Of a DNA stretch of 64,000 nt, positions 33,124-58,172 are shown one piece after another. This DNA is from Candidatus Liptonbacteria bacterium. Lineage in GTDB: Bacteria; Patescibacteriota; Minisyncoccia; UBA6257; JACOXY01. The stretch spans positions 67,794-131,793 of the forward strand of contig JACOXY010000011.1 of assembly GCA_016182095.1 (NCBI GenBank), written 5' to 3'. A program made the position numbers and the translations under genes. The first letter of the stretch is position 1, and each line of letters opens with the position of its first letter. The notes under the pieces were generated by a model, which worked only from the letters and a program-made list of their open reading frames with translations, was not told the origin of the DNA and searched no databases.

Positions 33124-33363
33124 CTATGGTTTATTTTGACAAAGAACATATATCACTTTCGGAGTACGCTTTTCATGGTATTTACCACCATGAAATTCTA
33201 AGTATTGTTCTTCAACCACTCTTACATCAAGCAATTTCCATCCTGCGTTTAAATACTCGTTAGCGTGATCTTCGGAGTAAACTTCAGAAACTTGCGCCAC
33301 TCGTGAAAGTTCGGACGCGTCCATTGATACCTCAATAATTTTACTGTCTTTGAAAAGTATCAA
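33124..33363 (-). CDS. hypothetical small protein
   Basis: 79 aa followed by a terminator hairpin (ggcgggcttttgcccgc plus T-run). Confidence 0.25.
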   Translation of the reverse strand: MILFKDSKIIEVSMDASELSRVAQVSEVYSEDHANEYLNAGWKLLDVRVVEEQYLEFHGGKYHEKRTPKVIYVLCQNKP

Positions 33364-34801
33364 GCACAGAGATTACTTTGTCAATCTCCGCTTTTGTCGT
33401 GTATTTCCCGAGCGTAAACCGTACGCTTTGTTTGGCGCGTTCTTTGGAGTGTCCAAGCGCCTCTATCACATAAGAGGGTGTGAGCGCACGGGCGCGACAA
33501 GCCGACCCCGAAGAAGCCGCGATGCCTGCTAAATCAAGTTTGGTTAGAAAAAATTGGGATTCAATGCCTGGGAGATAGACATTAAGAAAATTGGGGAGCC
33601 GTTGTAACGTTCTGGCCGTTCTATCGCTTCGCTCGTTCAAGCCGTTTTTCGCTATAGCATTTAGAACGCCCAGAACGTCTGCGCCGTTGATTTCCGCATT
33701 CAGATAAATCTTTTTGATGCCCTGCCATAAATTTTCACGCAGTTTGGCGATGCGGACAGATTCCTTTTCGCGATTTTTTTGTGCGAGTTCAACAGCCTTA
33801 GCAAAGCCGACAACGAACGGAACGTTTTCGGTGCCACTGCGCAATCCAAACTCTTGGCCACCACCAGTTATGATGGGGTGTGGGGTATGGAGTATAGGGT
33901 TTAGTTTTTTTTCTGCACTATACCCTAAACCCTGGACCCCAGACCCTTGGCGCGCATATAGCGCGCCAATGCCTTTCGGTCCATAGATTTTGTGAGCCGA
34001 GATTGTCATTAAGTCCACTCCCAATTTCCCCACATCACAATCTAAATACTGCAGAGCCTGTGCCGCATCAGTATGAAACATCGGATATGTAGAAGAAAAA
34101 CTTGTTTCTAAGAAAAGTGTCTCGGAGCCTGAGCGGGCATGGTTGCCGCTTTTAGTGGCAGAGCGAGGGCGAGAGTCAAGCGGGTGAGCGATCGGCTGGG
34201 CGAGCGAAACCCCGTCTTTTCGTGAAACAAGTTTTTCTTCTCTGAACTTCCTGATTATCTCGGCAATTTGCGCAACAGGCTCTACTGTTCCAACCTCATT
34301 ATTCGCATACATAACCGAAACCAAAACAGTACGCTCGTTAAGCGCCGCTTCAAGTTTTTCCAAATTAACAATTCCGCTTTTGTCTACTGGAATATAAACA
34401 ACTTCAACCCCCTCACGTTCCAAATCCCGCGCGGTTTCCAAAACAGATTCATGCTCTATTCCCGAAACCACAATCCTGGGGTGTGGGGTGTGGGGTGTGG
34501 GGTGTGGTTTTTTGTTTCCGCTATACCCCATACCCGATACCCTATACCCTTTGGCAATTCCCCGAATTGCCAAATTATTCGCTTCTGTTGCGGATCCCGT
34601 AAAAATAATTTCATTAAAGTTAGCGCCAATCGCCTTGGCAATTGTTTCCCGCGACTCATCAAGCGCCGACATAGCTGCTTGCCCAAAAGAATGCAGAGAT
34701 CCCGTGTTCCCAAATTTCAATCCAAAATACGGCTCCATTGCTTTCTTCACAACCGGATCAATTGGAGTTGTAGAGGCGTAGTCAAGGTAGATGCGCTTCA
34801 T
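33341..34801 (-). CDS. iscS: cysteine desulfurase (IscS/NifS-like) carrying two in-frame insertions
   Basis: YLDYASTTP; SAHKIYGPKG PLP lysine; C-terminal SSGSAC. The tracked ORF carries an N-terminal extension; the likely start is MKRIYLDYAS at 34801. Confidence 0.8.
   Translation of the reverse strand: MKRIYLDYASTTPIDPVVKKAMEPYFGLKFGNTGSLHSFGQAAMSALDESRETIAKAIGANFNEIIFTGSATEANNLAIRGIAKGYRVSGMGYSGNKKPHPTPHTPHPRIVVSGIEHESVLETARDLEREGVEVVYIPVDKSGIVNLEKLEAALNERTVLVSVMYANNEVGTVEPVAQIAEIIRKFREEKLVSRKDGVSLAQPIAHPLDSRPRSATKSGNHARSGSETLFLETSFSSTYPMFHTDAAQALQYLDCDVGKLGVDLMTISAHKIYGPKGIGALYARQGSGVQGLGYSAEKKLNPILHTPHPIITGGGQEFGLRSGTENVPFVVGFAKAVELAQKNREKESVRIAKLRENLWQGIKKIYLNAEINGADVLGVLNAIAKNGLNERSDRTARTLQRLPNFLNVYLPGIESQFFLTKLDLAGIAASSGSACRARALTPSYVIEALGHSKERAKQSVRFTLGKYTTKAEIDKVISVLDTFQRQ
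33872..33950. repeat. G-rich insertion element #1, in-frame in iscS
   Basis: ggggtgtggggtatggagtatagggtttag...ctataccctaaaccctggaccccagaccc encodes GSGVQGLGYSAEKKLNPILHTPHP between the conserved ALYARQ and IITGGGQE. Confidence 0.6.
34476..34553. repeat. G-rich insertion element #2, in-frame in iscS
   Basis: (ggggtgt)x4 then a T-loop then ataccccatacccgataccctataccc; encodes VSGMGYSGNKKPHPTPHTPHP. Confidence 0.6.
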
Positions 34802-34862
34802 AAAATGAAGCGTCATATGTCCGGTATCAAGTATCACGTAAATGGAATTTTTATTTTCCCCA

Positions 34863-34896
34863 AACACATGACACATAACACATGACACATGACACT
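34863..34896. repeat. tandem heptamer (acacatg) repeat in the iscS upstream intergenic region
   Basis: acacatgacacataacacatgacacatgacac, flanked by caaacac and gtgtttg. Confidence 0.5.
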
Positions 34897-35464
34897 AAAA
34901 TAGTGTTTGCGGAAAAATAAATTCACTAAAAGCAAGTTTAACCTCCAGGCGGTTGCCGGTGTTCCTCTCGGGAACAATTAGGTGTCCGCGGCTTTTCGCC
35001 AATTCATATAAATCTTTAGTAATTTTCACATCATTAAGGCAGTACTCTTCCAGCTCTTTCCACCTGCCCTCTTTGTAAAATTTAATAGCTTCAAGTCCGT
35101 GGTTTGTTTTCCCAACCCCAAGATTCGCCTGCGCCAGAAGATCAAGCCCGATTCTTTGGCCGGCACTGGTTTCAATTTCATCCAAAAGATCAAGCCGGTT
35201 AATTTTCCATAGATCAAATTTAAAATGCTTAGCAAGCACCGGTATGTCAAAACGATTAATACTAAAGCCGATTATAAGGCCGGCGTTCTTCAGAAATGTT
35301 TCGAGGTTGGCCAGTTCGGTGTCTTTAAATGCCAAATACCTGCCCTCGTTATAAGAATAAACACCAACCAGCGAGACCTCTAATCTATCAATCCGATCGC
35401 GCCCCCCAACATCCGCGAAAGAATTTTTAGTTTCAATGTCTAAAACGACTGTATCAGGTATCAT
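34895..35464 (-). CDS. DEDD-type 3'-5' exonuclease-like (RNase H-like fold) protein
   Basis: N-terminal VLDIET... (DxE) exonuclease motif. Confidence 0.35.
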   Translation of the reverse strand: MIPDTVVLDIETKNSFADVGGRDRIDRLEVSLVGVYSYNEGRYLAFKDTELANLETFLKNAGLIIGFSINRFDIPVLAKHFKFDLWKINRLDLLDEIETSAGQRIGLDLLAQANLGVGKTNHGLEAIKFYKEGRWKELEEYCLNDVKITKDLYELAKSRGHLIVPERNTGNRLEVKLAFSEFIFPQTLF

Positions 35465-35467
35465 AAT

Positions 35468-35509
35468 AACTCCACGAATTTACGAATCTTGCGTATATAC
35501 GAATTTACA
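35468..35509. repeat. left inverted repeat flanking the GxxExxY gene
   Basis: aactccacgaatttacgaatcttgcgtatatacgaatttaca. Confidence 0.6.
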
Positions 35510-35912
35510 AGTCGTTAACAAGACGCTTGAAACGAACTCCGTCTTTTAAAAAATAAATTATAATTGCTAAATTGAGATTAACACTTTTAAGATAAGATGA
35601 TACTTGGTCTATGTGCACATACCCAAATTTTGACACTACCTTTAATTCTACTATTACTTTGCCATCCACTAAAAAATCAAAGAAATTTTTCCCAACATTC
35701 TCTCCTTGAAAATTTACTGGAGCGTATTTTTCTTTTTCAAATTTAATGCCCTTTGCCACAAGCGATTTAGCATAAGCCCTCTGATATACAACCTCTTTGT
35801 GTCCCCATCTCAATTCATTAAAAACATCATACGCTGAACCTATTATCTCAAAACTCAGTTCCGGATAAAGCAAATCTTGTCTCCGTAATTTTTGATTCGT
35901 ATATTCACCCAT
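35505..35912 (-). CDS. GxxExxY-family (PD-(D/E)XK-like) protein
   Basis: GSAYDVFNELRWGHKEVVYQRA...VIVELKV matches the GxxExxY pattern. Confidence 0.5.
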   Translation of the reverse strand: MGEYTNQKLRRQDLLYPELSFEIIGSAYDVFNELRWGHKEVVYQRAYAKSLVAKGIKFEKEKYAPVNFQGENVGKNFFDFLVDGKVIVELKVVSKFGYVHIDQVSSYLKSVNLNLAIIIYFLKDGVRFKRLVNDL

Positions 35913-35932
35913 ATTCGTAAATTCATGGAGTT
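35892..35932. repeat. right inverted repeat flanking the GxxExxY gene
   Basis: Its reverse complement aactccatgaatttacgaatatgggtgaatatacgaatcaa matches the left repeat. Confidence 0.6.
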
Positions 35933-36410
35933 ACACGTGGCGATCCGCTACCTTGCTCGCGGCGTAACTGTCCGGCTTGGTCTTGACCTCAAAATTATAA
36001 GCGCGTATCATGCCAACCACTTCCTGTATCATAGATTTGGTTGCGCCATTCTCTCCGATATCCGCGTGTATCTCAAAATCAAAATTTACGGCCCCCAGAC
36101 TTTTCAGTTCTCTAAGAACATTCTGCGCCACTTCTATAGACATCAAAACCTCATTTATAATTCTGTCGCGCAGAGTATAAAACTTTTTAATTTCCAGCCG
36201 ACGCCAAAAATAACGTCCACCATTACCTACGCGATGTACCACTACAGCAGTGACAAAGTCGGCGCTGTTGTCGGCCAAACGAAGCGAGTCGGAGCCAATG
36301 ATAACTTTATAAAAAAAATTTTGCTCCTGCGCCATAAAATCAACAATTGCTTTTGCCACTTCTGTAGCATCCAACTTTACCCCGAAAGAAGTGTTAAATA
36401 AGTTTTTCAT
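35931..36410 (-). CDS. YkuK/DUF458-like RNase-H-fold protein
   Basis: VIIGSDSLRL...FVTAVVVHRVGNGGRYFWRR block; the likely start is MKNLFNT. Confidence 0.35.
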   Translation of the reverse strand: MKNLFNTSFGVKLDATEVAKAIVDFMAQEQNFFYKVIIGSDSLRLADNSADFVTAVVVHRVGNGGRYFWRRLEIKKFYTLRDRIINEVLMSIEVAQNVLRELKSLGAVNFDFEIHADIGENGATKSMIQEVVGMIRAYNFEVKTKPDSYAASKVADRHV

Positions 36411-36513
36411 TATCCATAGACTAAAACAAACTGGGCAAATTTGCAACCAATTTGAGAATGAATAAAAAAAGAAGCCCGCCCAAGTTCTGTTTTGCAAAAC
36501 TCGGGCGGGCGAA

Positions 36514-36586
36514 TAGGCCCTGGGGGATTTGAACCACCGTCGGTCGCTTATAAGGCGACTGCTCTAACCAATTGAGCTAAGGGCCC
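36514..36586 (-). tRNA. tRNA with anticodon UAU (Ile2-type)
   Basis: Manual fold: acceptor GGGCCCT/AGGGCCT; D arm GCTC..GAGC; anticodon stem GTCGC/GCGAC with loop CTTATAA; T arm GGTGG-TTCAAAT-CCCCC. Confidence 0.55.
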
Positions 36587-36589
36587 AAA

Positions 36590-36663
36590 TAGCGCCGGCG
36601 GGATTTGAACCCACGGTCTCCGGCTTGAAAGGCCGGTGTCCTAGACCACTAGACGATGGCGCC
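36590..36663 (-). tRNA. tRNA-Glu (UUC)
   Basis: Anticodon stem CCGGC/GCCGG with loop CTTTCAA; T loop TTCAAAT. Confidence 0.7.
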
Positions 36664-36733
36664 GCAAACAGAAAGATGGCAATCGGGCTTGAACCGATGA
36701 CCCCCTGCTTATCCCTCACTTATGCGCTTAAAA
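36664..36733 (-). other. tRNA 3'-half-like fragment (perfect T arm plus acceptor 3' strand, no 5' half)
   Basis: ATCGG-TTCAAGC-CCGAT followed by TGCCATC. Confidence 0.4.
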
Positions 36734-36806
36734 AGCCAGAGGAGGGGCTTGAACCCTCGACCACTCGATTACAAATCGAGTACTCTACCAACTGAGCTAC
36801 TCTGGC
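36734..36806 (-). tRNA. tRNA-Thr (UGU)
   Basis: Acceptor GCCAGAG/CTCTGGC; anticodon stem CTCGA/TCGAG with loop TTTGTAA; T arm GAGGG-TTCAAGC-CCCTC. Confidence 0.7.
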
Positions 36807-36850
36807 ATTAGTGAGGGACTAGGCGCTCTACCGACTGAGCTATGCCAGCA
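36807..36850 (-). other. tRNA 5'-half-like fragment (acceptor plus D arm)
   Basis: GCTGGCA-TA-GCTC-AGTCGGTA-GAGC; its acceptor pairs 6/7 with the 3' fragment at 36664-36733. Confidence 0.4.
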
Positions 36851-36923
36851 TACCCCCGAGAGGATTTGAACCCCTGACTCCGCGGGTAGAAACCGCGAGC
36901 TCTGTCCACTGAGCTACGGGGGC
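36851..36923 (-). tRNA. tRNA-Arg (UCU)
   Basis: Acceptor GCCCCCG; anticodon stem CGCGG/CCGCG with loop TTTCTAC; T arm AGGGG-TTCAAAT-CCTCT. Confidence 0.65.
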
Positions 36924-37093
36924 AGAACCAAAAAAAGAGTGAATGCGGGAGGAGGGATTTGCCCACAACTCTCACTTCGCCGTCGCGAAGTTCGGTCGCG
37001 GGCCCGCCTCGCGATCGCGCGTGCTCGCGCGATAAGCTCCGGCATTCAAATCCCGCCCGCAGGCAAAGAAGTTTGCCTGCTCGGAAAAAGAAA

Positions 37094-37167
37094 TGCGGGA
37101 GGAGGGATTTGAACCCTCAAAATCAGGCTTTTAAGGCCAGCACGTATGCCAATTCCGTCACTCCCGC
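37094..37167 (-). tRNA. type-I tRNA with anticodon UAA (Leu-like), atypical
   Basis: Acceptor GCGGGAG/CTCCCGC; T arm GAGGG-TTCAAAT-CCCTC; anticodon loop CTTAAAA; only a 5-nt variable region and a 3-bp D stem. Confidence 0.45.
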
Positions 37168-37183
37168 AAAGTCACTCGCCCTC

Positions 37184-37460
37184 AGGAGTGTGAGATATGA
37201 ACATAAATCAAATTTAGAAGCCAAAAAATGAGGTGATTTCAAGGCACGACGACGAAATTGTATTCAGAGAATACATTGAGGAGGAGTAACGAAGAAAATC
37301 AGCCATTTTTTGGCTTCCCCTCGGGGGCGGGCGAATTTCCTAAATCTGCCTCGTTCATCGTCGGAGCTGTACTCTTTGAGTACTAATCTCCTCCTCGCGC
37401 CTCACATATTTAGTAAATTCGCTCCGCTAAATTGATTTTGTTCGTATCTCACACTCCTAT
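37184..37460. repeat. inverted-repeat-bounded element of about 275 bp (MITE-like or structured RNA)
   Basis: aggagtgtgagatatgaacataaatcaa (37184-37212) versus the reverse complement of attgattttgttcgtatctcacactcct (37430-37460); interior has several nested complementary blocks. Confidence 0.45.
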
Positions 37461-41899: not shown

Positions 41900-42026
41900 T
41901 CCCTCACTCAAGAAAGAGTTTGGGTTTCTGTCTGTAAAATAAAATGTTTTTGGTCGAGTAGTATTAAGTTGATAAATAAATTAAAAAATAAGAGAGGGCG
42001 GATAATGCTCTTTCTTGAGTGAGGGA
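41898..42026 (+). promoter_or_regulatory. long-range perfect 20-bp inverted repeat bridging the dCMP-deaminase stop and the ftsK SD/start
   Basis: aatccctcactcaagaaagag (41898-41918) pairs with ctctttcttgagtgagggat (42007-42026); the right arm overlaps GAGG and the ATG. Confidence 0.45.
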
Positions 42027-44158
42027 TGGGGCGCAAGAAAAAACATGAAGAAGAAAACGAGGAAGGGGGCCTGTTAAACATGGAAATCGGGCATTTTTTT
42101 GAACTTCACCCAGACGCCAAAAAAAGCGTGGTAGCGGTGCTTTTCGCAGCCATAGCGATTATTTTAATTTTATCCAGCCTAGGCAAGGCCGGACCGGCAG
42201 GAAATGCCATCTTCCAAAGCTTAAGTTATCTCTTTGGGTGGGGATACTACTTGGCTCCCGTGACGATGTTCCTCGCGGCGTTTATATTTCTAATAACCAA
42301 GAGGCAAAGAGTCTTGGGCATTACAATCTTCGGATCGTTTCTGCTTTTTCTCTCAAGCTTGGGCATTATTGATATAGTTTCCCCAAAAAGCGGCGGCCTT
42401 TTGGGTTCCATAATTGGAATTATTGAGGCTCCATTCGGTTATATGGCGGCGCTCGTTCTAACTGGAGCATTTTTTATCGCTTCCCTTATCGCAACCCTGA
42501 ATACTCCCATAAAAATAAAAAACCCTTTCGCTCGCGGCAATGTCTCTTCCGAGGATGAAGTACTAACTCCCGAAGAAGAGGAGAATATTGAAGCCCACGA
42601 AAAAGACGACGCGGAGTCAGAAGAGGATGGAGAGGAAGCAGAAGATGAAGAAGAGGAGGCGCGGGCAGATGAAGAGAATGCAAAACAAGGGCGCGGATTA
42701 TTCGGCAGAAGAAAAAAATCGGGGCTCGCGGCAATAAGCGGAGATTATACGCCCCCACCGCTTTCACTCCTTAAAACTTCTACCGAAAAACCGACTTCTG
42801 GAGATTTAAGAGCGAACGCCAATATTATTAAAAGAACATTGGAGTCGTTCGGCATTGCCGTTGAGATGGGAGAAATAAATGTTGGGCCAAAAGTAACTCG
42901 CTATACGCTAAAGCCTGCCGAAGGAGTAAAGATCTCAAAAATAAACGCCTTAAATCAAGATTTGGCGTTAGCGCTCGCGGCTCACCCCATAAGAATAGAA
43001 GCCCCCATCCCTGGAAAATCTTTGGTTGGCATTGAAGTGCCCAACAAAGCCGCGGCCGTAGTGCGACTTGGAAGTCTCATGAACTATAAAGAGTTTAGCG
43101 ATGGCGGCATGCTTGATTTTGTTTTGGGAAGAGATGTGACAGGAAATCCAGTTTTCTCTGATATTGCCAAAATGCCGCATTTATTAGTGGCTGGCGCAAC
43201 CGGTTCGGGGAAGTCGGTTATGCTGCATACTTTGATTTTGTGTCTGCTTTATAAAAATTCTCCCGAAACTTTGCGCATGATAATGATTGACCCGAAGAGA
43301 GTGGAGCTTTCTGTGTACAACGGCATGCCGCACCTAATAGCTCCGGTCGTGACAGACGGGAAAAAAACCGTTGCGGTTTTTCGATGGACTATAAGCGAAA
43401 TGGAAAGGCGCTATGGACTTCTTGAGGCCGCCGGGAGCCGCGACATCAAAAGCTTTAATGTGCAGAATAAAAAGGAGGCCTTGCCATATATTGTAATAAT
43501 TATTGATGAGCTGGCAGACCTTATGGCAGCCTATGGCAGAGAAATTGAGGGGTCAATCGTGCGCATTGCCCAAATGGCGCGCGCAACAGGAATTCATCTT
43601 ATAGTGGCAACCCAACGTCCGTCAGTCGAAGTAATAACCGGGTTAATTAAGGCAAACATAACCACCAGAATAGCACTCCAAGTCGCAAGCCAAGTTGACT
43701 CCAGAACCATTCTTGACTCCGCGGGAGCCGAAAAACTTTTAGGAGGCGGCGATTTGCTTTTTATATCTGCCGAGTTTTCAAAACCAAAAAGAATCCAGGG
43801 CGCCTACGTGAGCGAAGACGAAATCAGAATTGTTGCGAATTTTATAAGAGAGAAAAATAGCGACCTGAAAAATGACGAGGAAATTGAATTCGCTAATCAA
43901 TCCACACACGAAATAGGAAACGACAAAGATGTATTTGACGAGTTCTCCGAAGATGGCAACGAAGAAGACTTGATGTATGGAGACGCGGTAGAAGTTGTGA
44001 GAGAGGCGGGCAAGGCTTCCGCCTCGCTCTTACAGCGCCGCCTTAAAGTCGGCTACGCCAGGGCCGCCCGCCTGCTTGATATTATGGAGGCGCGAGGTAT
44101 CATAGGACCGGGGGACGGAGCGAAACCACGCGAGGTATATTTAAACGAAGAAGTGTAG
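42026..44158 (+). CDS. ftsK: DNA translocase FtsK/SpoIIIE
   Basis: 4 N-terminal TM helices; acidic linker; Walker A GATGSGKS; C-terminal gamma wHTH. Confidence 0.85.
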   Translation: MGRKKKHEEENEEGGLLNMEIGHFFELHPDAKKSVVAVLFAAIAIILILSSLGKAGPAGNAIFQSLSYLFGWGYYLAPVTMFLAAFIFLITKRQRVLGITIFGSFLLFLSSLGIIDIVSPKSGGLLGSIIGIIEAPFGYMAALVLTGAFFIASLIATLNTPIKIKNPFARGNVSSEDEVLTPEEEENIEAHEKDDAESEEDGEEAEDEEEEARADEENAKQGRGLFGRRKKSGLAAISGDYTPPPLSLLKTSTEKPTSGDLRANANIIKRTLESFGIAVEMGEINVGPKVTRYTLKPAEGVKISKINALNQDLALALAAHPIRIEAPIPGKSLVGIEVPNKAAAVVRLGSLMNYKEFSDGGMLDFVLGRDVTGNPVFSDIAKMPHLLVAGATGSGKSVMLHTLILCLLYKNSPETLRMIMIDPKRVELSVYNGMPHLIAPVVTDGKKTVAVFRWTISEMERRYGLLEAAGSRDIKSFNVQNKKEALPYIVIIIDELADLMAAYGREIEGSIVRIAQMARATGIHLIVATQRPSVEVITGLIKANITTRIALQVASQVDSRTILDSAGAEKLLGGGDLLFISAEFSKPKRIQGAYVSEDEIRIVANFIREKNSDLKNDEEIEFANQSTHEIGNDKDVFDEFSEDGNEEDLMYGDAVEVVREAGKASASLLQRRLKVGYARAARLLDIMEARGIIGPGDGAKPREVYLNEEV

Positions 44159-44159
44159 T

Positions 44160-44232
44160 AACTCCACGAATTTACGAATCTAGCTAATATACGAATTTAT
44201 CCGACGTGAACCAATAGATTCGTATATACGCT
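44160..44232. repeat. solo palindromic copy of the GxxExxY-flanking repeat
   Basis: aactccacgaatttacgaatctagctaatatacgaattta...agattcgtatatacg. Confidence 0.55.
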
Positions 44233-44260
44233 AGGATTCGCCATATTCGCGGACTTCCAA

Positions 44261-44896
44261 ATGGACAAAGATTTTAAAACATTATTCAACGAAACCCTGC
44301 ACAACTACGGAGTTGGTATTGCTAAGTTAAGCGAAACAACCGGGATCCCGGAACGCTATCTTGAAGCAATGCGTTCGGGCAATTTGGGGAGTTTGCCGCC
44401 CGCTCCTTACGTGCGCGGTTATTTAAATAAAATCGGCAATCTTGCGGGCGTAAATGGTGAAGAATTGTGGACTGCCTTCAAAAAGGATGAGCAGACAAAA
44501 ACTTCCGGCTCGGAAGATCGCCTTCCGGAAAATAGATTCTCTCTGCAAAAAATCAATAAGGGAAGGGTTGTGGGCTTGGCGGTGCTTGTATTGCTTTTCG
44601 CTTACGGATTATTCCGATTTGACGTGATCGTCGGCAAACCGCTTTTACAAATATCCGCTCCAGTGGAAGCCCTTTTCTTAAGCAACGAAGAGATCTTTGA
44701 ATTGAGCGGGCTTGCGGAATCAAGAGATAAGCTCACGGTAAATGGAGAAAATATAATTATTAACGAGGACGGTTCTTTTAATAAGAAATGGAAGCTAACT
44801 CCCGGAATAAATATTTTGGAATTTAAGGTGAAAAGATTTCTCGGGCTTGAGACATGCCACTACATCTTTGTTGTTGCCGTAGAGACCAGGGTGTAG
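44261..44896 (+). CDS. RodZ-like HTH membrane protein
   Basis: N-terminal HTH (GIAKLSETTGIPERYLEAMRSGN...YVRGYLNKIGNLAGV); single TM; C-terminal domain. Confidence 0.4.
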   Translation: MDKDFKTLFNETLHNYGVGIAKLSETTGIPERYLEAMRSGNLGSLPPAPYVRGYLNKIGNLAGVNGEELWTAFKKDEQTKTSGSEDRLPENRFSLQKINKGRVVGLAVLVLLFAYGLFRFDVIVGKPLLQISAPVEALFLSNEEIFELSGLAESRDKLTVNGENIIINEDGSFNKKWKLTPGINILEFKVKRFLGLETCHYIFVVAVETRV

Positions 44897-44949
44897 TAAT
44901 ATCAATAAACATAAATAAAAAATAAAAGATTAAAAATCAAAAATTAAGA

Positions 44950-44968
44950 TTGTTCGCCAAAGGCGAAC
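44950..44968 (+). promoter_or_regulatory. palindromic candidate operator (SOS box-like) upstream of recA
   Basis: tGTTCGCCaaaGGCGAACt, about 45 nt upstream of the recA ATG. Confidence 0.35.
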
Positions 44969-45014
44969 TCCATAATTTTAATCTTTGATATTTAATTTTT
45001 AATTTAGCTGTACT

Positions 45015-46714: not shown

Positions 46715-46764
46715 GGACAAAACATAAAAGTTCTCCAAAAGTTTCGCAACCAGTATCAGGCCGG
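46715..46764. repeat. left copy of a ~50-bp direct repeat (duplicate of the folD 3' end)
   Basis: aaaagttctccaaaagtttcgcaaccagtatcaggccggtaccgtgggg. Confidence 0.6.
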
Positions 46765-46776
46765 TACCGTGGGGAA

Positions 46777-47281: not shown

Positions 47282-48130
47282 CTATTTTGCAATTTCGCAA
47301 AGTTTATAAAAGTTCTCCAAAAGTTTCGCAACCAGTATCGGGCCGGTACCGTGAGGGGTGGGAGTATAGGAAATAGGGTTTAGGCTAAAGCCCGATGGGC
47401 TCGCCCGTCTAGGGGTTTGGGGTTTAGGGTCTAGTGAAGAAGAATCAAAGTCACCTTTGCCGTTGTCGTAGCCAAAGTCAATAACGACCGCTTCTTCGTT
47501 CAACATGTCTGGCTTTATAATACCGGCTTTACCAACACCAGAAATTACGAGGTTGGCTTCCTTTAAGAGCAAGAAGTCGCTTCCTTCGTCAAAGAGAATA
47601 ATTTCTTTCGCTTTGCCTTGAAGCCACACCGATATCGGTTTCCCGACCAAAAACCCCAAGCCGACTACTGCAACCTTGCTAGTTGATAGGGTATAGCCAA
47701 TAACCAATAGTATATCCTGTAAAGTACCGACGGCAGGGGGCAAAACCGGATTCCGGCCGGTATAAAACGCTCCGAGCGTGCGCTCGCCCAAAACATCCAC
47801 GTCCTTCTCGCGCGGGATAACATTTAAAATATAGTGCTTCTTCACGTGCTCCGGAAGCGGGAGCTGAACTATTATCCCCCCGCAAGTCCTATGATTTGCG
47901 ATTTTTAAAACTTCTTCGCGTAATTCGTCATTCTTTACTGTTTCCGGGAACTCATACAAACGGAAGTCTATGCCCAGCTCTTTAGCGGCTTTTTCTTTTT
48001 GTTTTATAAAACTCTTTGATGCCTCATCGTCGTCAACAAGCACGGCAGCCAAAAAATTTTTGGGTTTGGGCTGTGCCTTCAGTTTTTCTAAAATATTTTC
48101 TGCTATCTGTTTTCCATTTATAATTGCCAT
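47282..48130 (-). CDS. folD: bifunctional methylene-THF dehydrogenase/cyclohydrolase FolD carrying an in-frame insertion
   Basis: N-terminus MAIINGKQIAE...; C-terminal TPTPHGTGPILVAKLL matches the TPVPGGVGPMT consensus; the 47308-47357 repeat and the 47355-47432 insertion both lie inside the CDS. Confidence 0.75.
   Translation of the reverse strand: MAIINGKQIAENILEKLKAQPKPKNFLAAVLVDDDEASKSFIKQKEKAAKELGIDFRLYEFPETVKNDELREEVLKIANHRTCGGIIVQLPLPEHVKKHYILNVIPREKDVDVLGERTLGAFYTGRNPVLPPAVGTLQDILLVIGYTLSTSKVAVVGLGFLVGKPISVWLQGKAKEIILFDEGSDFLLLKEANLVISGVGKAGIIKPDMLNEEAVVIDFGYDNGKGDFDSSSLDPKPQTPRRASPSGFSLNPISYTPTPHGTGPILVAKLLENFYKLCEIAK
47355..47432. repeat. G-rich insertion element, in-frame in folD
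   Basis: ggggtgggagtataggaaatagggtttagg...ggggtttggggtttagggtctag encodes LDPKPQTPRRASPSGFSLNPISY. Confidence 0.55.
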
Positions 48131-48817: not shown

Positions 48818-48850
48818 TTTGATTTATGTTCGTATCTCACACTCCTATAT
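48818..48850. repeat. third copy of the ttcgtatctcacactcctat repeat
   Basis: tttgatttatgttcgtatctcacactcctatat. Confidence 0.5.
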
Positions 48851-56389: not shown

Positions 56390-57572
56390 GTGTCCAGTAT
56401 TCTTGAAATAGTGCGAACCGTTTTCGCCGCCTGCGGCGGCGAGGAAAGCCCCCCGCGAAAAATCCGAAAGGCAGCGGAGCCGCACCGATGACAATTTCAA
56501 GTTTTTCTTTGGCGGCAATTTAATTATGAATTTAATTCAATTAAAAATCAAACATAATAAAAAGAAAAAACCCGCTAGGTCCGAAGACATAGCGGGAAGC
56601 AGTTGGTCTGCTCAGTCCTTGCTACTTGGCACCGTTCAAGCTGTGCCGGAGTTCACGCACCCACTCGCTTCTCTCGCGAGCACGCCGCACTTCGGCGTTG
56701 TGCTCCTTGGTGTGGTATGCAATGTCTCGCCGTGCGTTCTTGACGAGCTGGGTACGGTACTGCTTGCCCGAGAGCCGCTGTGGCATCGTAGGTGTGTGCA
56801 GGCAGTCGAACTCGACGCTTTCCGCGAGCTGATCGATCATGAAGCTCTTGAGGCCTTCGTGATCTTTGGTGGGCGGAACCCACTTTCCCGCTTGCTTGAG
56901 CATGGCGATGTAAGCTCGCCCGGTCTTCTCGTTCTTCTCGCCATACTTCTTGCTCGAGCGAACTTCGTCATCGAAGGCCTTCTTGGCCTCTCTCTCCGCC
57001 CGTGCGTTACTCCACTTTTCGACTTCGGCGAGACGCTTCTTGGCCGTCTCGATTGCGTCGAGGTGGTAGTTGCTGGGTCGGAATTCATCGGGGATTGGCG
57101 CATCGAGCGAATCGTCGCGCATCTCGATGAGAGCGCCGAAGGCGCGAGCGCACTTCATGGCGAACTCCGAGAACGTTACCTGCTTCCCGTCGTTCAGGTC
57201 TGCTGTGTATCCTGTCGGCATCGGTTTCTCCTTTCCTTTCGGATGTTTGGGTTTTCAATGGGAAAACGGCCTTTTGCCGCTATCCCGAACCATTATTCCT
57301 GCTACAAGTATAGCAATATTTATATGGAATGTCAAGAGCAAACAAAAAATCAGCATTTCTGCTGTTTTTCTGGTTTAAATCTTATGTATTTTACGATTAA
57401 AAATTTTTCCGTTCCCCAAATTCAAAATATGGTTCGCGCCGATATTTTTCTTCGGGTTCTTCTGCGGTTTTTATCGGTGTGGCTCCACCGCCTTTCGGAT
57501 TTTTCGCGGGGGGCTTTCCTCGCCGCCGCAGGCGGCGAAAACGGTTCGCACTATTTCAAGAATACTGGACAC
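56390..57572. mobile_element. GC-rich element of about 1.2 kb bounded by ~85-100 bp terminal inverted repeats
   Basis: Left TIR gtgtccagtattcttgaaatagtgcgaaccgttttcgccgcctgcggcggcgaggaaagccccccgcg...; right TIR is its reverse complement at 57490-57572; the interior is visibly GC-richer than the host. Confidence 0.45.
56622..57221 (-). CDS. hypothetical protein carried by the TIR element
   Basis: 199 aa, K/E/A/R-rich with normal composition; the overlapping + frame is L/R-rich antisense. Confidence 0.35.
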   Translation of the reverse strand: MPTGYTADLNDGKQVTFSEFAMKCARAFGALIEMRDDSLDAPIPDEFRPSNYHLDAIETAKKRLAEVEKWSNARAEREAKKAFDDEVRSSKKYGEKNEKTGRAYIAMLKQAGKWVPPTKDHEGLKSFMIDQLAESVEFDCLHTPTMPQRLSGKQYRTQLVKNARRDIAYHTKEHNAEVRRARERSEWVRELRHSLNGAK

Positions 57573-57576
57573 CTTA

Positions 57577-58015
57577 GGAAAAGGCAAGCTAGAGGAAGCC
57601 GCCTCGCTTCGCTCGGCGGCCATTTCGTATTGAATTTTGGGGGCAAAAACGAATTGGCGGTTTCGTTTGGGGGACGGAAAAATTTTTAATCAATTTTAGT
57701 TCAACAAAACTATGCGTTATGTAATCTATGCTCGCAAATCAACGGAAGATGACGACAGGCAAGTGCTTTCGATTGAAGCTCAACTCGTTGAGCTTTCTGA
57801 ATTTGCCGCCAAAGAAAAACTTGAAATTGTCGCCTCTTTTCAAGAGGCAAAAACTGCAAAAGAACCCGAAGAAAAACATCGGCGCGAACCATATTTTGCG
57901 AAACCGCCAATTCGTTTTTGCCCCCAAAATTCAATACGAAATGGCCGCCGAGCGAAGCGAGGCGGCTTCGAAATGGCCGCCGAGCGAAGCGAGGCGGCTT
58001 CCTCTAGCTTGCGTT
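57577..58015. mobile_element. second TIR-bounded remnant holding a truncated serine-recombinase N-terminus
   Basis: TIRs gaggaagccgcctcgcttcgctcggcggccatttcgtattgaattttgggggcaaaaacgaattggcggtttcg with its reverse complement at 57903-58015 (32-bp tandem duplication on the right). The internal ORF opens MRYVIYARKSTEDDDRQVLSIEAQ (resolvase-like) and is cut after about 55 aa. Confidence 0.45.
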
Positions 58016-58026
58016 TTTCTAAAGTG

Positions 58027-58098
58027 TCCCCTCGGAGGGAATCGAACCCCCATTAAAAGGTTAGAAACCTTCCGTTCTATCCGTTGAACTACGAGGGG
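58027..58098 (-). tRNA. second tRNA-Arg (UCU) copy
   Basis: Acceptor CCCCTCG/CGAGGGG; anticodon stem GAAGG/CCTTT with loop TTTCTAA; T arm GGGGG-TTCGATT-CCCTC. Confidence 0.5.
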
Positions 58099-58172
58099 TG
58101 GTCGGAGCGCCGAGAATCGAACTCGGACCTTATGCTCCCAAAGCATATATACTACCACTATACTACGCTCCG
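58099..58172 (-). tRNA. tRNA-Pro (UGG) with encoded CCA
   Basis: Acceptor CGGAGCG/CGCTCCG; anticodon stem TATGC/GCATA with loop TTTGGGA; ends ACCA; abuts tRNA-Arg with no spacer. Confidence 0.6.

What the first reader, a model, noticed from the sequence alone, without database searches (positions are those of the whole stretch)
35468..35932. GxxExxY gene bracketed by ~40-bp inverted repeats, with a cargo-less palindromic copy downstream of ftsK
aactccacgaatttacgaat...atatacgaattta (35468-35509) and its reverse complement (35892-35932) bracket the GxxExxY CDS exactly. At 44160-44232 the two repeat arms occur back-to-back with no cargo. Either this is a palindromic intergenic element into which the GxxExxY gene inserted, or it is a small mobile unit carrying this PD-(D/E)XK-like protein. 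It lies right beside the tRNA cluster.
Basis: seen in the sequence. Interest (0 to 1): 0.55.

Follow-up and report, generated by a model that had tools for sequence, protein, structure and literature searches.

The report
Hairpin cassette carrying a GxxExxY nuclease
A small nuclease gene sits inside a 40-bp inverted-repeat "hairpin cassette" with an empty copy 8.7 kb away; the same design surrounds this gene family in many uncultured microbes, and close relatives hold different cassettes at the same two gene junctions, which points to a poorly described kind of selfish DNA akin to the intervening sequences of ribosomal RNA genes.

Summary
Four copies of a ~41-nt motif (TAACTCCACGAATTTACGAATCTnGCGTATATACGAATTTA) occur in the window. 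Two inverted copies bracket the GxxExxY ORF. Two lie back to back between ftsK and a rodZ-like gene.

It is not a local oddity. The motif occurs in at least 118 genome stretches, mostly Patescibacteria. In 88 of 102 convergent arm pairs the arms are less than 60 nt apart. All seven loci with a 380-535-nt gap enclose a GxxExxY gene. Of 79 GxxExxY homologues found by protein alone, 60 have flanking inverted repeats, against 9 of 150 neighbouring ORFs.

The arms are arrays of 3-5 short units, usually (A)CGAAT, with fixed polarity, even around homologues below 36% identity.

In relatives, the same two junctions hold a GxxExxY gene, a 23S-rRNA-IVS-type four-helix-bundle gene, a decayed copy of that gene, or an empty hairpin. 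This pattern disagrees with the host gene tree.

Best reading: a loaded and an empty copy of a selfish palindromic cassette. It resembles rRNA intervening sequences and MITEs. Its RecB/Cas4-like nuclease probably acts on the arrays. That mechanism is inferred, not shown. The tRNA neighbourhood is incidental.

The parts
35893..35933 (-). Arm c2. This is the 5' arm of the loaded cassette, read on the coding (minus) strand. It has four (A/G)(C/T)GAAT units spaced 8, 10 and 8 nt. Its first three bases, TAA, are the stop codon of the upstream RNaseH_like gene.
35505..35912 (-). GxxExxY / PDDEXK_3 ORF, the cargo. The longest ORF is 135 aa. The probable true start is the TTG at 35873 (122 aa), with GGAG 7 nt upstream. 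The residues E40, D79, E89-x-K91, Q103 and Y107 are intact.
35467..35507 (+). Arm c1. This is the 3' arm of the loaded cassette, the inverted copy of c2. Its inner end overlaps the GxxExxY stop codon. Its complement (GGAGTTA) ends 3 nt before the ATG of the downstream gene, so the junction reads GGAGTTAttATG.
44159..44199 (+). Arm c3 of the empty cassette. It matches c1 at 39 of 41 positions and starts 1 nt after the ftsK stop codon.
44200..44213. Loop of the empty cassette. The similarity to the c1 side of the loaded copy continues about 12 nt past the arm (family D4). This is weak evidence that the loop is a remnant of the cargo's 3' end.
44214..44258 (-). Arm c4 of the empty cassette. It is the most diverged copy and ends 2 nt before the ATG of the rodZ-like gene.
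35931..36497 (-). Upstream neighbour at slot A: an RNaseH_like (PF04308) gene. Gene callers give 159 aa.
34895..35464 (-). Downstream neighbour at slot A: an RNase_H_2 / 3'-5' exonuclease-like gene (189 aa). It was used to find the same slot in relatives.
42026..44158 (+). Upstream neighbour at slot B: ftsK.
44261..44896 (+). Downstream neighbour at slot B: a rodZ-like HTH_25 gene. It was used to find the same slot in relatives.

Best explanation
The window holds one loaded and one empty copy of a palindromic 'array-hairpin cassette'. This is a small selfish DNA element.

Anatomy:
- Each arm is an array of 3-5 direct 7-10-nt units. Here the unit is (A)CGAAT, spaced 8, 10 and 8 nt.
- The two arms are inverted copies of each other.
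- The loop is either short or filled exactly by one small gene. Here that gene is a GxxExxY protein, a minimal RecB/Cas4-like PD-(D/E)XK nuclease.
- Cassettes sit precisely between the stop codon of one gene and the start codon of the next.
- The cargo points the same way as the host operon, so it is probably expressed by read-through transcription.

Shown:
- The gene family and the inverted (A)CGAAT arrays go together across deep divergence.
- Empty copies far outnumber loaded ones.
- Relatives carry different cassettes at the same two junctions (GxxExxY, four-helix-bundle 23S_rRNA_IVP, decayed, or empty). The pattern disagrees with the host gene tree.
- A loaded cassette can decay to an empty one by internal deletion.

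Inferred:
- The nuclease, probably as a dimer, recognises the arrays in DNA and makes the break that lets the cassette be copied.
- Copying would be homing-like, with repair from a loaded copy using the arms or flanking genes as homology. Alternatively it could be transposition-like.
- Empty hairpins would be its non-autonomous derivatives, as MITEs are to transposons or REPINs to RAYT.
For: (1) The motif is widespread.
My estimate of the chance expectation is about 6-30.
- Most are Patescibacteria. Others are Omnitrophota, Saccharibacteria and two 'Pacearchaeota' MAGs.
- Several MAGs carry it on many contigs.

(2) The gap between arms is bimodal.
- 88 of 102 pairs have a gap under 60 nt, and none has 150-300 nt.
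- Seven loci have 380-535 nt, and every one encloses a GxxExxY ORF.

(3) The protein-first test agrees.
- 60 of 79 GxxExxY loci have flanking inverted repeats at z>4, against 9 of 150 neighbouring ORFs.

(4) CGAAT is enriched in the flanks with fixed polarity.
- It occurs about twice per 85-nt flank, 25-40 times the background.
- It is almost only in one polarity: sense strand upstream, antisense downstream.
- This holds for homologues below 36% identity.
- Unit cores are 95% identical between arms and spacers 78%.

(5) Cargo and arm type go together.
- Eight four-helix-bundle cassettes have other unit cores.

(6) Slot comparison in relatives.
- Slot A holds GxxExxY in two genomes and 23S_rRNA_IVP in two.
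- Slot A also holds empty array hairpins with other cores in two genomes. One genome has a degenerate 194-nt spacer there.
- Slot B holds an empty ACGAAT-type hairpin in two genomes, an intact IVP gene in one, and the same arms with an internally deleted IVP gene in one.
- The host tree is ((window, L212), (L213, L214)). Cassette type groups (window, L213) and (L212, L214).

(7) Arms change together.
- The window and L207 copies appear orthologous (cargo 62% identical, flanking gene 70%).
- Between them, ACGAAT/ATTCGT became ACAAAT/ATTTGT in both arms.

(8) Extra copies of a cassette's own arm lie elsewhere in the same locus in 7 of 41 cases. The cross-locus control gave 2 of 123.

(9) The cargo looks like an active DNA nuclease.
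- E18, E40, D79, E89, K91 and Y107 are invariant and Q103 is nearly so.
- The AlphaFold model has pLDDT 88.9.
- The best PDB folds are Cas4 SSO0001, LHK-Exo, lambda exonuclease and MGME1.
- Many family members are two-domain tandem proteins, which fits action as a dimer.

(10) The cargo points the same way as both neighbours in 47 cases and opposite to both in 1.

(11) No RNA-strand signature was found.
- Arm mismatches compatible with G-U pairing number 67 on the sense strand and 56 on the antisense strand. Transversions number 188.
Against: - No nuclease activity, DNA binding or transposition has been shown for any GxxExxY protein. The only survey in the searched literature lists the family's function as unknown.
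- No target-site duplication or excision footprint was seen.
- I found no junction lacking any cassette, so insertion boundaries are not defined.
- Empty hairpins within one genome differ in spacers and loops. That looks less like recent copy-and-paste than like long-kept units under motif-level constraint.
- The alternative cargo, a four-helix bundle, is not an enzyme. A nuclease therefore cannot be essential to the cassette design as such.
- Clean replacement at the same slot could result from ordinary homologous recombination between relatives, without any element-encoded activity.
- The locus sets are biased. L001-L118 were chosen by the DNA motif. L119-L198 were chosen by peptide patterns of this subfamily.
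- Distant GxxExxY genes show less. The Treponema one has only a single 11-nt inverted repeat, and the Persicobacter one has at most a weak one.
- MAG taxonomy may include mis-binned contigs.
Confidence: 0.5

Rival explanations
1. The hairpin works at the RNA level, like a 23S rRNA intervening sequence. The arms pair in the operon transcript into a stem of about 35-40 bp. RNase III cuts this stem, or it stabilises the neighbouring cistrons. The insert is thereby made harmless and the loop mRNA is released. The GxxExxY gene is a passenger whose function is unrelated to the arms.
For: - The predicted RNA fold closes the 491-nt cassette with the arm-arm stem (z = -4.7).
- The cargo is co-oriented with the operon in 47 of 48 informative cases.
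- Cassettes lie between co-directional genes in 33 of 39 cases and fill the stop-to-start gap exactly.
- The alternative cargo is the S23p/PF05635 protein of true rRNA intervening sequences. In those, a stem of terminal inverted repeats is cut by RNase III (PMC4990558).
- Compensatory changes occur in both arms.
Against: - A double-stranded RNA stem needs no particular sequence. Yet the (A)CGAAT unit and its polarity persist around homologues below 36% identity.
- Unit cores are better conserved than spacers.
- There is no excess of G-U-compatible mismatches on the transcribed strand, and transversions dominate.
- Similar inverted arrays lie in frame inside a coding sequence, where RNase III cleavage would destroy the mRNA.
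- There is no Rfam match.
Confidence: 0.2
2. The palindromes are host or independent elements. The GxxExxY gene is a free-standing homing endonuclease gene that invades them. The nuclease cuts empty hairpins at or near their centre, and repair from a loaded copy inserts the gene into the loop. The hairpins themselves spread by some other means.
For: - The cargo fills the loop exactly.
- Loaded and empty copies with nearly identical arms coexist in one genome.
- The gene is present in some relatives and absent in others at the same junction.
- PD-(D/E)XK homing endonucleases are known, for example I-Ssp6803I (my own knowledge).
- The arms would give about 40 bp of homology on each side.
Against: - The only transition observed directly runs from loaded to empty, by internal deletion.
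- Arm type and cargo type co-vary across the whole family. This is equally expected if gene and arms are one unit.
- It does not explain how the hairpins reach new junctions.
- It does not explain why a non-enzymatic four-helix-bundle gene occupies the same position.
Confidence: 0.15
3. The repeats are ordinary regulatory sequence: operators for a DNA-binding regulator, a translational coupling device that hides the next gene's ribosome-binding site, or a terminator. The GxxExxY gene merely lies between two such sites.
For: - In the window, the outer stem pairs CTCC after the upstream stop codon with the GGAG that precedes the downstream ATG.
- Arrays of short direct repeats resemble operator or iteron sites.
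Against: - No T-run follows the arms.
- Only 2 of 39 hairpins lie between convergent genes.
- The GGAG pairing is not general.
- The same motif occurs in several phyla, next to unrelated genes.
- Relatives carry unrelated unit sequences at the same junction. That is not expected for a conserved operator of the neighbouring genes.
Confidence: 0.05

Closest known systems
Intervening sequences (IVS) of bacterial 23S rRNA genes carrying an S23p / PF05635 ORF (Leptospira, Coxiella, Brucella, Xanthomonas relatives; PMC4990558)
   Same: - The size is 400-500 bp.
- Terminal inverted repeats form a long stem around one small ORF of about 120 aa.
- The distribution is sporadic and suggests horizontal transfer, and the way they move is unknown.
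- In relatives of this genome, the very same two junctions carry PF05635 genes between array-type arms.
   Different: - Here the element lies between protein-coding genes, not in rRNA helix 25 or 45.
- The cargo is a PD-(D/E)XK nuclease, not a four-helix bundle.
- The arms are arrays of a conserved short unit with fixed polarity.
- RNase III processing is untested here, and the mismatch pattern gives no RNA-strand signal.
REP / REPIN elements and their RAYT transposases (my own knowledge)
   Same: - Short palindromic repeats lie outside genes and within operons, often in many copies per genome.
- A single enzyme gene is bracketed by inverted copies of the same repeat.
- Empty units far outnumber the enzyme-bearing one.
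   Different: - The enzyme is a roughly 125-aa RecB/Cas4-like PD-(D/E)XK nuclease, not a Y1 (HUH) transposase.
- The arms are multi-unit arrays, not a tetranucleotide plus a stem.
- The element occurs across phyla, and cassettes are replaced between close relatives. REPIN-RAYT systems are largely inherited vertically.
MITEs and their autonomous parent transposons (my own knowledge)
   Same: - There are terminal inverted repeats.
- A loaded form and shorter empty forms exist.
- One case of derivation by internal deletion was seen directly (L212 against L214).
   Different: - No target-site duplication was seen.
- No recognised transposase is present.
- Empty copies within a genome differ in spacers and loops while keeping the unit cores.
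Free-standing and intron-borne homing endonuclease genes, including the PD-(D/E)XK enzyme I-Ssp6803I (my own knowledge)
   Same: - A small nuclease gene is present or absent at one fixed site among relatives.
- Homology on both sides could template its copying.
   Different: - There is no intron or intein.
- The site is itself a repeated palindrome.
- Cutting of the empty site is untested.
Rickettsia palindromic elements (RPE) (my own knowledge)
   Same: - These are short palindromic selfish repeats, tolerated in intergenic DNA and in frame inside coding sequences.
- The window's NifS-like gene carries inverted 8-nt arrays in frame.
   Different: - RPEs carry no ORF and have no array architecture.
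- Whether the in-frame arrays here belong to the same element class is not established.

Membership tests
GxxExxY protein (TIGR04256) / PDDEXK_3 (PF13366) | The profile HMM score is above the curated cut-off | tested here: met
   TIGR04256 scores 98 bits against a cut-off of 35. PF13366 scores 93.4 bits against a cut-off of 22.
GxxExxY protein (TIGR04256) / PDDEXK_3 (PF13366) | GxxExxY motif, plus the PD-(D/E)XK catalytic residues (D, then ExK) and a RecB-type QxxxY | tested here: met
   The motif is G37-x-x-E40-x-x-Y43. D79, E89 and K91 are invariant. Q103 is nearly invariant and Y107 invariant in 43 sequences.
GxxExxY protein (TIGR04256) / PDDEXK_3 (PF13366) | PD-(D/E)XK nuclease fold | tested here: met
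   The AlphaFold2 model has pLDDT 88.9 and order of elements H-H-E-E-E-H-E-E. The best Foldseek PDB hits are Cas4 SSO0001, LHK-Exo, lambda exonuclease and MGME1, at TM about 0.5 and E = 1e-4 to 1e-3.
GxxExxY protein (TIGR04256) / PDDEXK_3 (PF13366) | Nuclease activity and its substrate | not testable with these tools
   There is no solved structure by sequence search. The only survey found lists the function as unknown.
23S rRNA intervening sequence (IVS) | Inserted in a 23S (or 16S) rRNA helix | tested here: not met
   Both copies lie between protein-coding genes. No rRNA match was found in the region.
23S rRNA intervening sequence (IVS) | Terminal inverted repeats forming a stem around one small ORF | tested here: met
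23S rRNA intervening sequence (IVS) | The ORF belongs to the S23p / PF05635 family | tested here: not met
   The window's cargo is PF13366. PF05635 genes do occupy the same junctions in relatives and other array-flanked positions.
23S rRNA intervening sequence (IVS) | Excised from the transcript by RNase III | not testable with these tools
   The indirect test gave no excess of G-U-compatible mismatches on the sense strand (67 against 56, p = 0.37).
MITE / TIR transposon | Terminal inverted repeats | tested here: met
MITE / TIR transposon | Target-site duplication flanking the element | tested here: inconclusive
   No direct repeat is visible outside the arms in the window. No junction lacking a cassette was found to define the boundaries.
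MITE / TIR transposon | Many copies per genome, plus a longer autonomous relative with the same ends | tested here: inconclusive
   The 64-kb window has two sites with the same ends, one loaded. Other MAGs carry the motif on many contigs. Whether the cargo is the mobilising enzyme is unknown.
MITE / TIR transposon | A recognised transposase in the autonomous copy | tested here: not met
   The only hits are PF13366 and TIGR04256, with no transposase family.
REPIN-RAYT system | Palindromic repeats outside genes, with the enzyme gene bracketed by inverted repeat copies | tested here: met
REPIN-RAYT system | The enzyme is a Y1 (HUH) tyrosine transposase | tested here: not met
   The cargo is a PD-(D/E)XK nuclease.
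Homing endonuclease gene | The nuclease gene is present or absent at one fixed site among relatives | tested here: met
   At slot A, the window and L207 have the gene. L205 and L218 have empty hairpins. L208 and L210 have another cargo.
Homing endonuclease gene | The enzyme cuts the allele that lacks it | not testable with these tools
   This needs biochemistry.
Intrinsic terminator | A G+C-rich stem followed by a T-run | tested here: not met
   There is no terminator-like site at either cassette. The nearest is at 36474-36510.
Known anti-phage defence or phage gene families | A match to PADLOC or PHROG models, or presence on viral contigs | tested here: not met
   GxxExxY has no PADLOC or PHROG hit. 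IMG/VR holds no motif match and no close relatives of this protein.

The most novel reading that the evidence does not exclude
PF13366 (GxxExxY) and PF05635 (23S_rRNA_IVP) are two large families of small proteins with no established function. On this reading they are the alternative cargoes of one pan-phylum class of mobile 'array-hairpin cassettes'. The arms are arrays of a short unit read by the cargo protein. The cassettes home into, or replace one another at, the exact gap between a stop codon and the next start codon. They are also tolerated in rRNA helices and in variable protein loops. The classic rRNA intervening sequences would then be the rRNA-resident subset of this class, and the GxxExxY nuclease would be a new minimal mobility enzyme.
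Probability: 0.35. Interest if true: 0.85.

Novelty: new variant of a known kind. Interest (0 to 1): 0.68.

Why it matters
- **A testable role for a large family.** The GxxExxY family has about 26,500 cluster representatives at 50% identity. The one survey found in the searched literature lists its function as unknown. A consistent genomic design gives it a testable role: inverted (A)CGAAT arrays around the gene, empty derivatives, and cassette turnover at fixed junctions.
- **A link to an old puzzle.** The same junctions in relatives hold the S23p-type gene of rRNA intervening sequences. The origin and mobility of those sequences have been unclear since the early 1990s (PMC4990558). That question therefore becomes approachable by comparative genomics and simple biochemistry.
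- **Practical consequences.** These hairpins break short-read assemblies. Contigs L201-L204 end at the cassette. The hairpins also blur start-codon calls in Patescibacteria genomes.

Tried and rejected
- **Known RNA family:** the Rfam scan of 34800-37300 at E<=1 found only the tRNAs and noise.
- **Terminator or promoter:** no T-run follows the arms. Promoter-like hits are not specific to the arms.
- **tRNA-targeted integration:** rejected. A gene and a terminator separate the cassette from the tRNAs, and related cassettes are not next to tRNAs.
- **Phage or defence origin:** the motif and close relatives are absent from IMG/VR. GxxExxY has no PADLOC or PHROG match.
- **Apparent PheS-GxxExxY fusion in L070:** this is an artefact of a masked run of N.
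- **Exact look-up of the 135-aa ORF:** it found nothing because gene callers use the TTG start.
- **RNA-strand test:** counts of G-U-compatible mismatches gave no signal.
- **Search for a junction with no cassette, to define insertion boundaries and target-site duplications:** all seven slot-A genomes and all four slot-B genomes hold some cassette or a degenerate spacer.
- **Literature:** searches for GxxExxY, PDDEXK_3, PF13366, TIGR04256, PF05635 and TIGR02436 found no description of this design in the held library. Subscription journals are not covered.
- **Cultured organisms:** four plasmid records carry distant GxxExxY genes. The Treponema one has a single 11-nt inverted repeat and the Persicobacter one has at most a weak repeat. 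Generality beyond the sampled subfamily is therefore open.
Full report
**1. What is in the window**

Reading 35200-36200 and 44000-44400 and aligning the four candidate arms shows a motif of about 41 nt, TAACTCCACGAATTTACGAATCTnGCGTATATACGAATTTA. It occurs four times:
- c1 at 35467-35507 (+)
- c2 at 35893-35933 (-)
- c3 at 44159-44199 (+)
- c4 at about 44214-44258 (-)

How alike the arms are:
- The outer 21 nt of c1 and c2 are 95% complementary.
- c1 and c3 differ at 2 of 41 positions.
- c4 is the most diverged copy.

A degenerate pattern that fits all four arms, GAATNTN{1,2}CGAATN{7,9}ATATACGAAT, hits only these four places in 64 kb. It hit nothing in 100 shuffles.

Each arm is itself a short array, with units like ACGAAT at spacings of 8, 10 and 8 nt.

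Arms c2 and c1 bracket a 135-aa ORF on the minus strand (35505-35912).
- The ORF is a clear GxxExxY / PDDEXK_3 protein (TIGR04256 98 bits, PF13366 93 bits).
- The ATG of the longest ORF lies inside c2.
- Gene callers on identical contigs start at the TTG at 35873, which has GGAG 7 nt upstream.

The arms leave no spare intergenic DNA:
- The TAA of c2 is the stop codon of the upstream RNaseH_like gene.
- The complement of c1 ends 3 nt before the ATG of the downstream exonuclease-like gene.
- c3 starts right after the ftsK stop codon.
- c4 ends 2 nt before the rodZ-like ATG.

The source is a Candidatus Liptonbacteria MAG.

**2. The motif elsewhere**

I estimate that 6-30 would be expected by chance, allowing for A+T-rich genomes.
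- Most are Patescibacteria of many candidate phyla.
- Others are Omnitrophota, Saccharibacteria and two 'Pacearchaeota' MAGs.
- Some MAGs carry the motif on many contigs.

An nhmmer profile of the arms found 269 arm hits in these loci plus the window. Of 102 convergent pairs:
- 88 have the arms less than 60 nt apart.
- Two have 60-150 nt between them.
- None has 150-300 nt.
- Eight entries (seven loci) have 380-535 nt.
- Three entries (two loci) have 680-1020 nt.
- One is beyond 2.5 kb.

Every one of the seven loci encloses a GxxExxY ORF. An eighth locus, L070, has its left side masked by N. Its apparent fusion to pheS is an artefact.

So the usual form is the empty hairpin, and the only recurrent cargo of this arm family is GxxExxY.

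**3. The reverse test, starting from the protein**

A metagenome scan with an alignment of eight GxxExxY proteins gave 537 confirmed stretches. 80 loci were kept, at 32-53% identity to the query. I aligned the 110 nt around each start with the reverse complement of the 110 nt around each stop.
- 60 of 79 loci scored z>4 against shuffles.
- Only 9 of 150 neighbouring ORFs in the same loci did so.

The arms differ between loci, but all are arrays of 3-5 direct units. The unit is the same in both arms of one cassette. Examples are ACGAAT, ACAAAT, ACTAAT, CACGAATT, ACGAAA, CTCTAAT and CACAGAG.
- The periods are mostly 8 and 10 nt.
- Unit cores are 95% identical between arms and spacers 78%.

In these protein-selected loci:
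- CGAAT occurs about twice per 85-nt flank, 25-40 times the background.
- It occurs almost only in one polarity: sense strand upstream, antisense downstream.
- This holds for homologues below 36% identity.

A plain stem would not need a conserved unit or a fixed polarity. I therefore infer that something reads the unit sequence.

**4. Other cargoes**

Screening all fetched loci for ORFs with strongly inverted flanks gave 54 ORFs, 39 of them GxxExxY. The rest included:
- four PF05635 '23S rRNA-intervening sequence protein' genes (four-helix bundle),
- one small GIY-YIG gene,
- several ribosomal protein genes that simply have an empty hairpin on each side.

The PF05635 genes also sit between inverted unit arrays. 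Their cores are different: TGAAAT, ATGAATT, TCAAATC and CGATAATT.

**5. The same junctions in relatives**

I used the flanking proteins to find orthologous loci.

| Genome (locus) | Slot A: RNaseH_like / exonuclease | Slot B: ftsK / rodZ-like |
|---|---|---|
| Window | GxxExxY, ACGAAT arms | empty ACGAAT hairpin |
| GCA_964616565 (L205, L212), the closest relative (84% on the exonuclease) | empty 83-nt hairpin of TGACA/TGTCA units | intact 120-aa PF05635 gene, CGAAC-unit arms |
| SRR22387965 (L207, L213) | GxxExxY, ACAAAT arms | empty hairpin that aligns along its length with the window's |
| SRR25621603 (L217, L214) | degenerate 194-nt spacer | same CGAAC arms as L212, gene internally deleted |
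| L208 | PF05635 gene, CTAGCGA arms | not sampled |
| L210/L211 | PF05635 gene, CCTGACAC arms | not sampled |
| L218 | empty hairpin with another core | not sampled |

In L214 about 95 nt of the 5' end of the PF05635 gene remain, now containing stop codons, plus the last 12 nt or so.

RodZ-like and FtsK identities give the host tree ((window, L212), (L213, L214)). Cassette type groups the window with L213 and L212 with L214. At least two replacements or transfers, or a long-lived polymorphism, are needed to explain this.

The window and L207 cassettes look orthologous.
- The cargo is 62% identical and the flanking gene 70%.
- Their arms align unit by unit.
- ACGAAT/ATTCGT changed to ACAAAT/ATTTGT in both arms.

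**6. Where and how the cassettes sit**
- Empty hairpins lie between co-directional genes in 33 of 39 scorable cases.
- Stop codons lie within about -3 to +15 nt of the arm, and start codons mostly within 0-20 nt.
- The GxxExxY gene points the same way as both neighbours in 47 cases and opposite to both in 1. This fits expression by read-through, or selection on orientation.
- Extra copies of a cassette's own arm lie elsewhere in the same few kilobases in 7 of 41 loci. The cross-locus control gave 2 of 123.

**7. The protein**
- In 43 sequences, E18, E40, D79, E89, K91 and Y107 are invariant and Q103 is nearly so. This gives the E...D...ExK...QxxxY pattern of RecB/Cas4-type nucleases. The assignment of that pattern to RecB/Cas4 nucleases is from my own knowledge.
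- The AlphaFold2 model is confident (pLDDT 88.9).
- Its best PDB matches are Cas4 SSO0001, LHK-Exo, lambda exonuclease and MGME1. tRNA-splicing endonucleases and Hjc match more weakly.
- No solved relative was found by sequence.
- The family is large: 26,517 representatives at E<=1e-3. Many are proteins of about 265 aa with two GxxExxY domains.
- It is absent from PADLOC and PHROGs, and from IMG/VR at this level of similarity.

**8. DNA level or RNA level**

For an RNA role:
- The RNA fold of the whole cassette closes with the arm-arm stem (z = -4.7).
- The empty element folds as a hairpin on either strand.

Against a purely RNA role:
- Arm mismatches show no excess of G-U-compatible changes on the sense strand (67 against 56) and are mostly transversions (188).
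- The unit sequence and its polarity are conserved far beyond what pairing needs.
- Similar inverted arrays lie in frame inside the NifS-like coding sequence.

I therefore prefer a DNA-level reading, without excluding RNase III processing as a way the insert is tolerated.

**9. Interpretation**

Shown:
- The design exists and is strongly tied to the GxxExxY family.
- Empty forms dominate.
- One transition from loaded to empty by internal deletion was seen.
- Cassettes turn over at fixed junctions, out of step with host phylogeny.

Inferred:
- The nuclease reads the arrays and makes the break that drives copying, either homing-like or transposition-like.
- Empty hairpins depend on the nuclease in trans.

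Not explained:
- why the arms are arrays,
- how the cassette lands exactly between a stop and a start codon,
- the absence of target-site duplications,
- what the non-enzymatic four-helix-bundle cargo does.

**10. Comparison with known systems**

The closest known things are:
- the ORF-bearing intervening sequences of 23S rRNA genes (PMC4990558),
- REPIN-RAYT systems,
- MITEs,
- free-standing homing endonuclease genes.

The element fails at least one defining feature of each:
- it is not in rRNA,
- it has no Y1 transposase,
- it has no recognised transposase or target-site duplication,
- it has no intron or intein.

I file it as a new variant of the palindromic selfish-element kind, not as a member of any of them. 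No paper in the held library describes this design. Subscription literature and database curators' notes could not be checked.

**11. Caveats**
- L001-L118 were selected by the DNA motif. L119-L198 were selected by peptide patterns of this subfamily.
- The nhmmer threshold was lenient, so low-scoring arm hits may be noise.
- The z-scores use simple shuffles. The neighbouring-ORF control addresses composition.
- MAG taxonomy can be wrong.
- Distant GxxExxY genes in cultured Treponema and Persicobacter show only a short or weak inverted repeat.

Noticed in passing
window 33874-33948, 34477-34551 and 34091-34241 (all inside the 515-aa NifS-like ORF 33341-34888, minus strand); L210 2363-2431: Inverted arrays of 8-nt units lie in frame inside the coding sequence. 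One example is GGGGTGTG GGGTATGG ... CCATACCC. They fall in variable, insertion-prone stretches of the protein and give peptides such as HPTPHTPHP. An ortholog (L210) has a different inverted array (TAGAATG units) at another variable position. The design resembles the intergenic cassettes and recalls Rickettsia palindromic elements.
   Followed up: partly
window 56390-58029: This is a dense nest of long inverted repeats. It includes 105 nt at 95%, 71 nt at 100% and 61 nt at 95%. A perfect 32-nt tandem duplication lies at 57937-58000. The nest sits directly beside tRNA-Arg and tRNA-Pro (58026-58172).
   Followed up: no
window 37184-37212, 37436-37458, 48818-48846: There are three copies of a 23-29-nt sequence, AGGAGTGTGAGATATGAACATAA. 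Two are inverted 229 nt apart, just beside tRNA-Leu. The third lies 11.6 kb away.
   Followed up: no
window 44920-45005: Another long hairpin of about 85 nt fills the gap between the rodZ-like gene and recA. It is A+T-rich and has a G+C-rich centre. Its sequence is unrelated to the ACGAAT arms.
   Followed up: no
window 46724-46774 and 47306-47356; 47361-47444: A 51-nt direct repeat (96% identical) has its copies 582 nt apart. Directly repeated GGGGTTT/GGGTTTAG units lie inside the 282-aa ORF 47282-48130 (minus strand).
   Followed up: no
window 36513-36587: ARAGORN calls a tRNA-Ile with anticodon TAT. From my own knowledge, most bacteria decode AUA with a lysidine-modified CAT tRNA, so this may be worth checking.
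   Followed up: no
L032 3352-4456 (MAG MFD01112.bin.2.16): Two identical ACGAAT-type arms, with over 25 nt of identical flank on each side, are in inverted orientation around about 1 kb. That stretch holds no GxxExxY gene. The only family hit is a T4SS_pilin-like ORF on the opposite strand. This may be a larger composite or a different cargo.
   Followed up: partly
protein representatives P0284-P0300 and others: Many of the best-scoring GxxExxY family members are proteins of about 260-275 aa with two GxxExxY domains in tandem. These are either real pseudo-dimers or read-through of adjacent cassettes.
   Followed up: no
L201-L204 (Logan contigs of the same organism): Short-read contigs carrying the exonuclease gene end 9-42 nt upstream of its start, which is at the hairpin arm. 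The cassette evidently breaks assemblies.
   Followed up: no
L087 4078-4365: A 95-aa GIY-YIG nuclease gene is flanked by a 40-nt inverted repeat that is not of the array type (TGTCATCCCGGCGAAGACCGGGATCC...). This is another small nuclease nested in a hairpin.
   Followed up: partly
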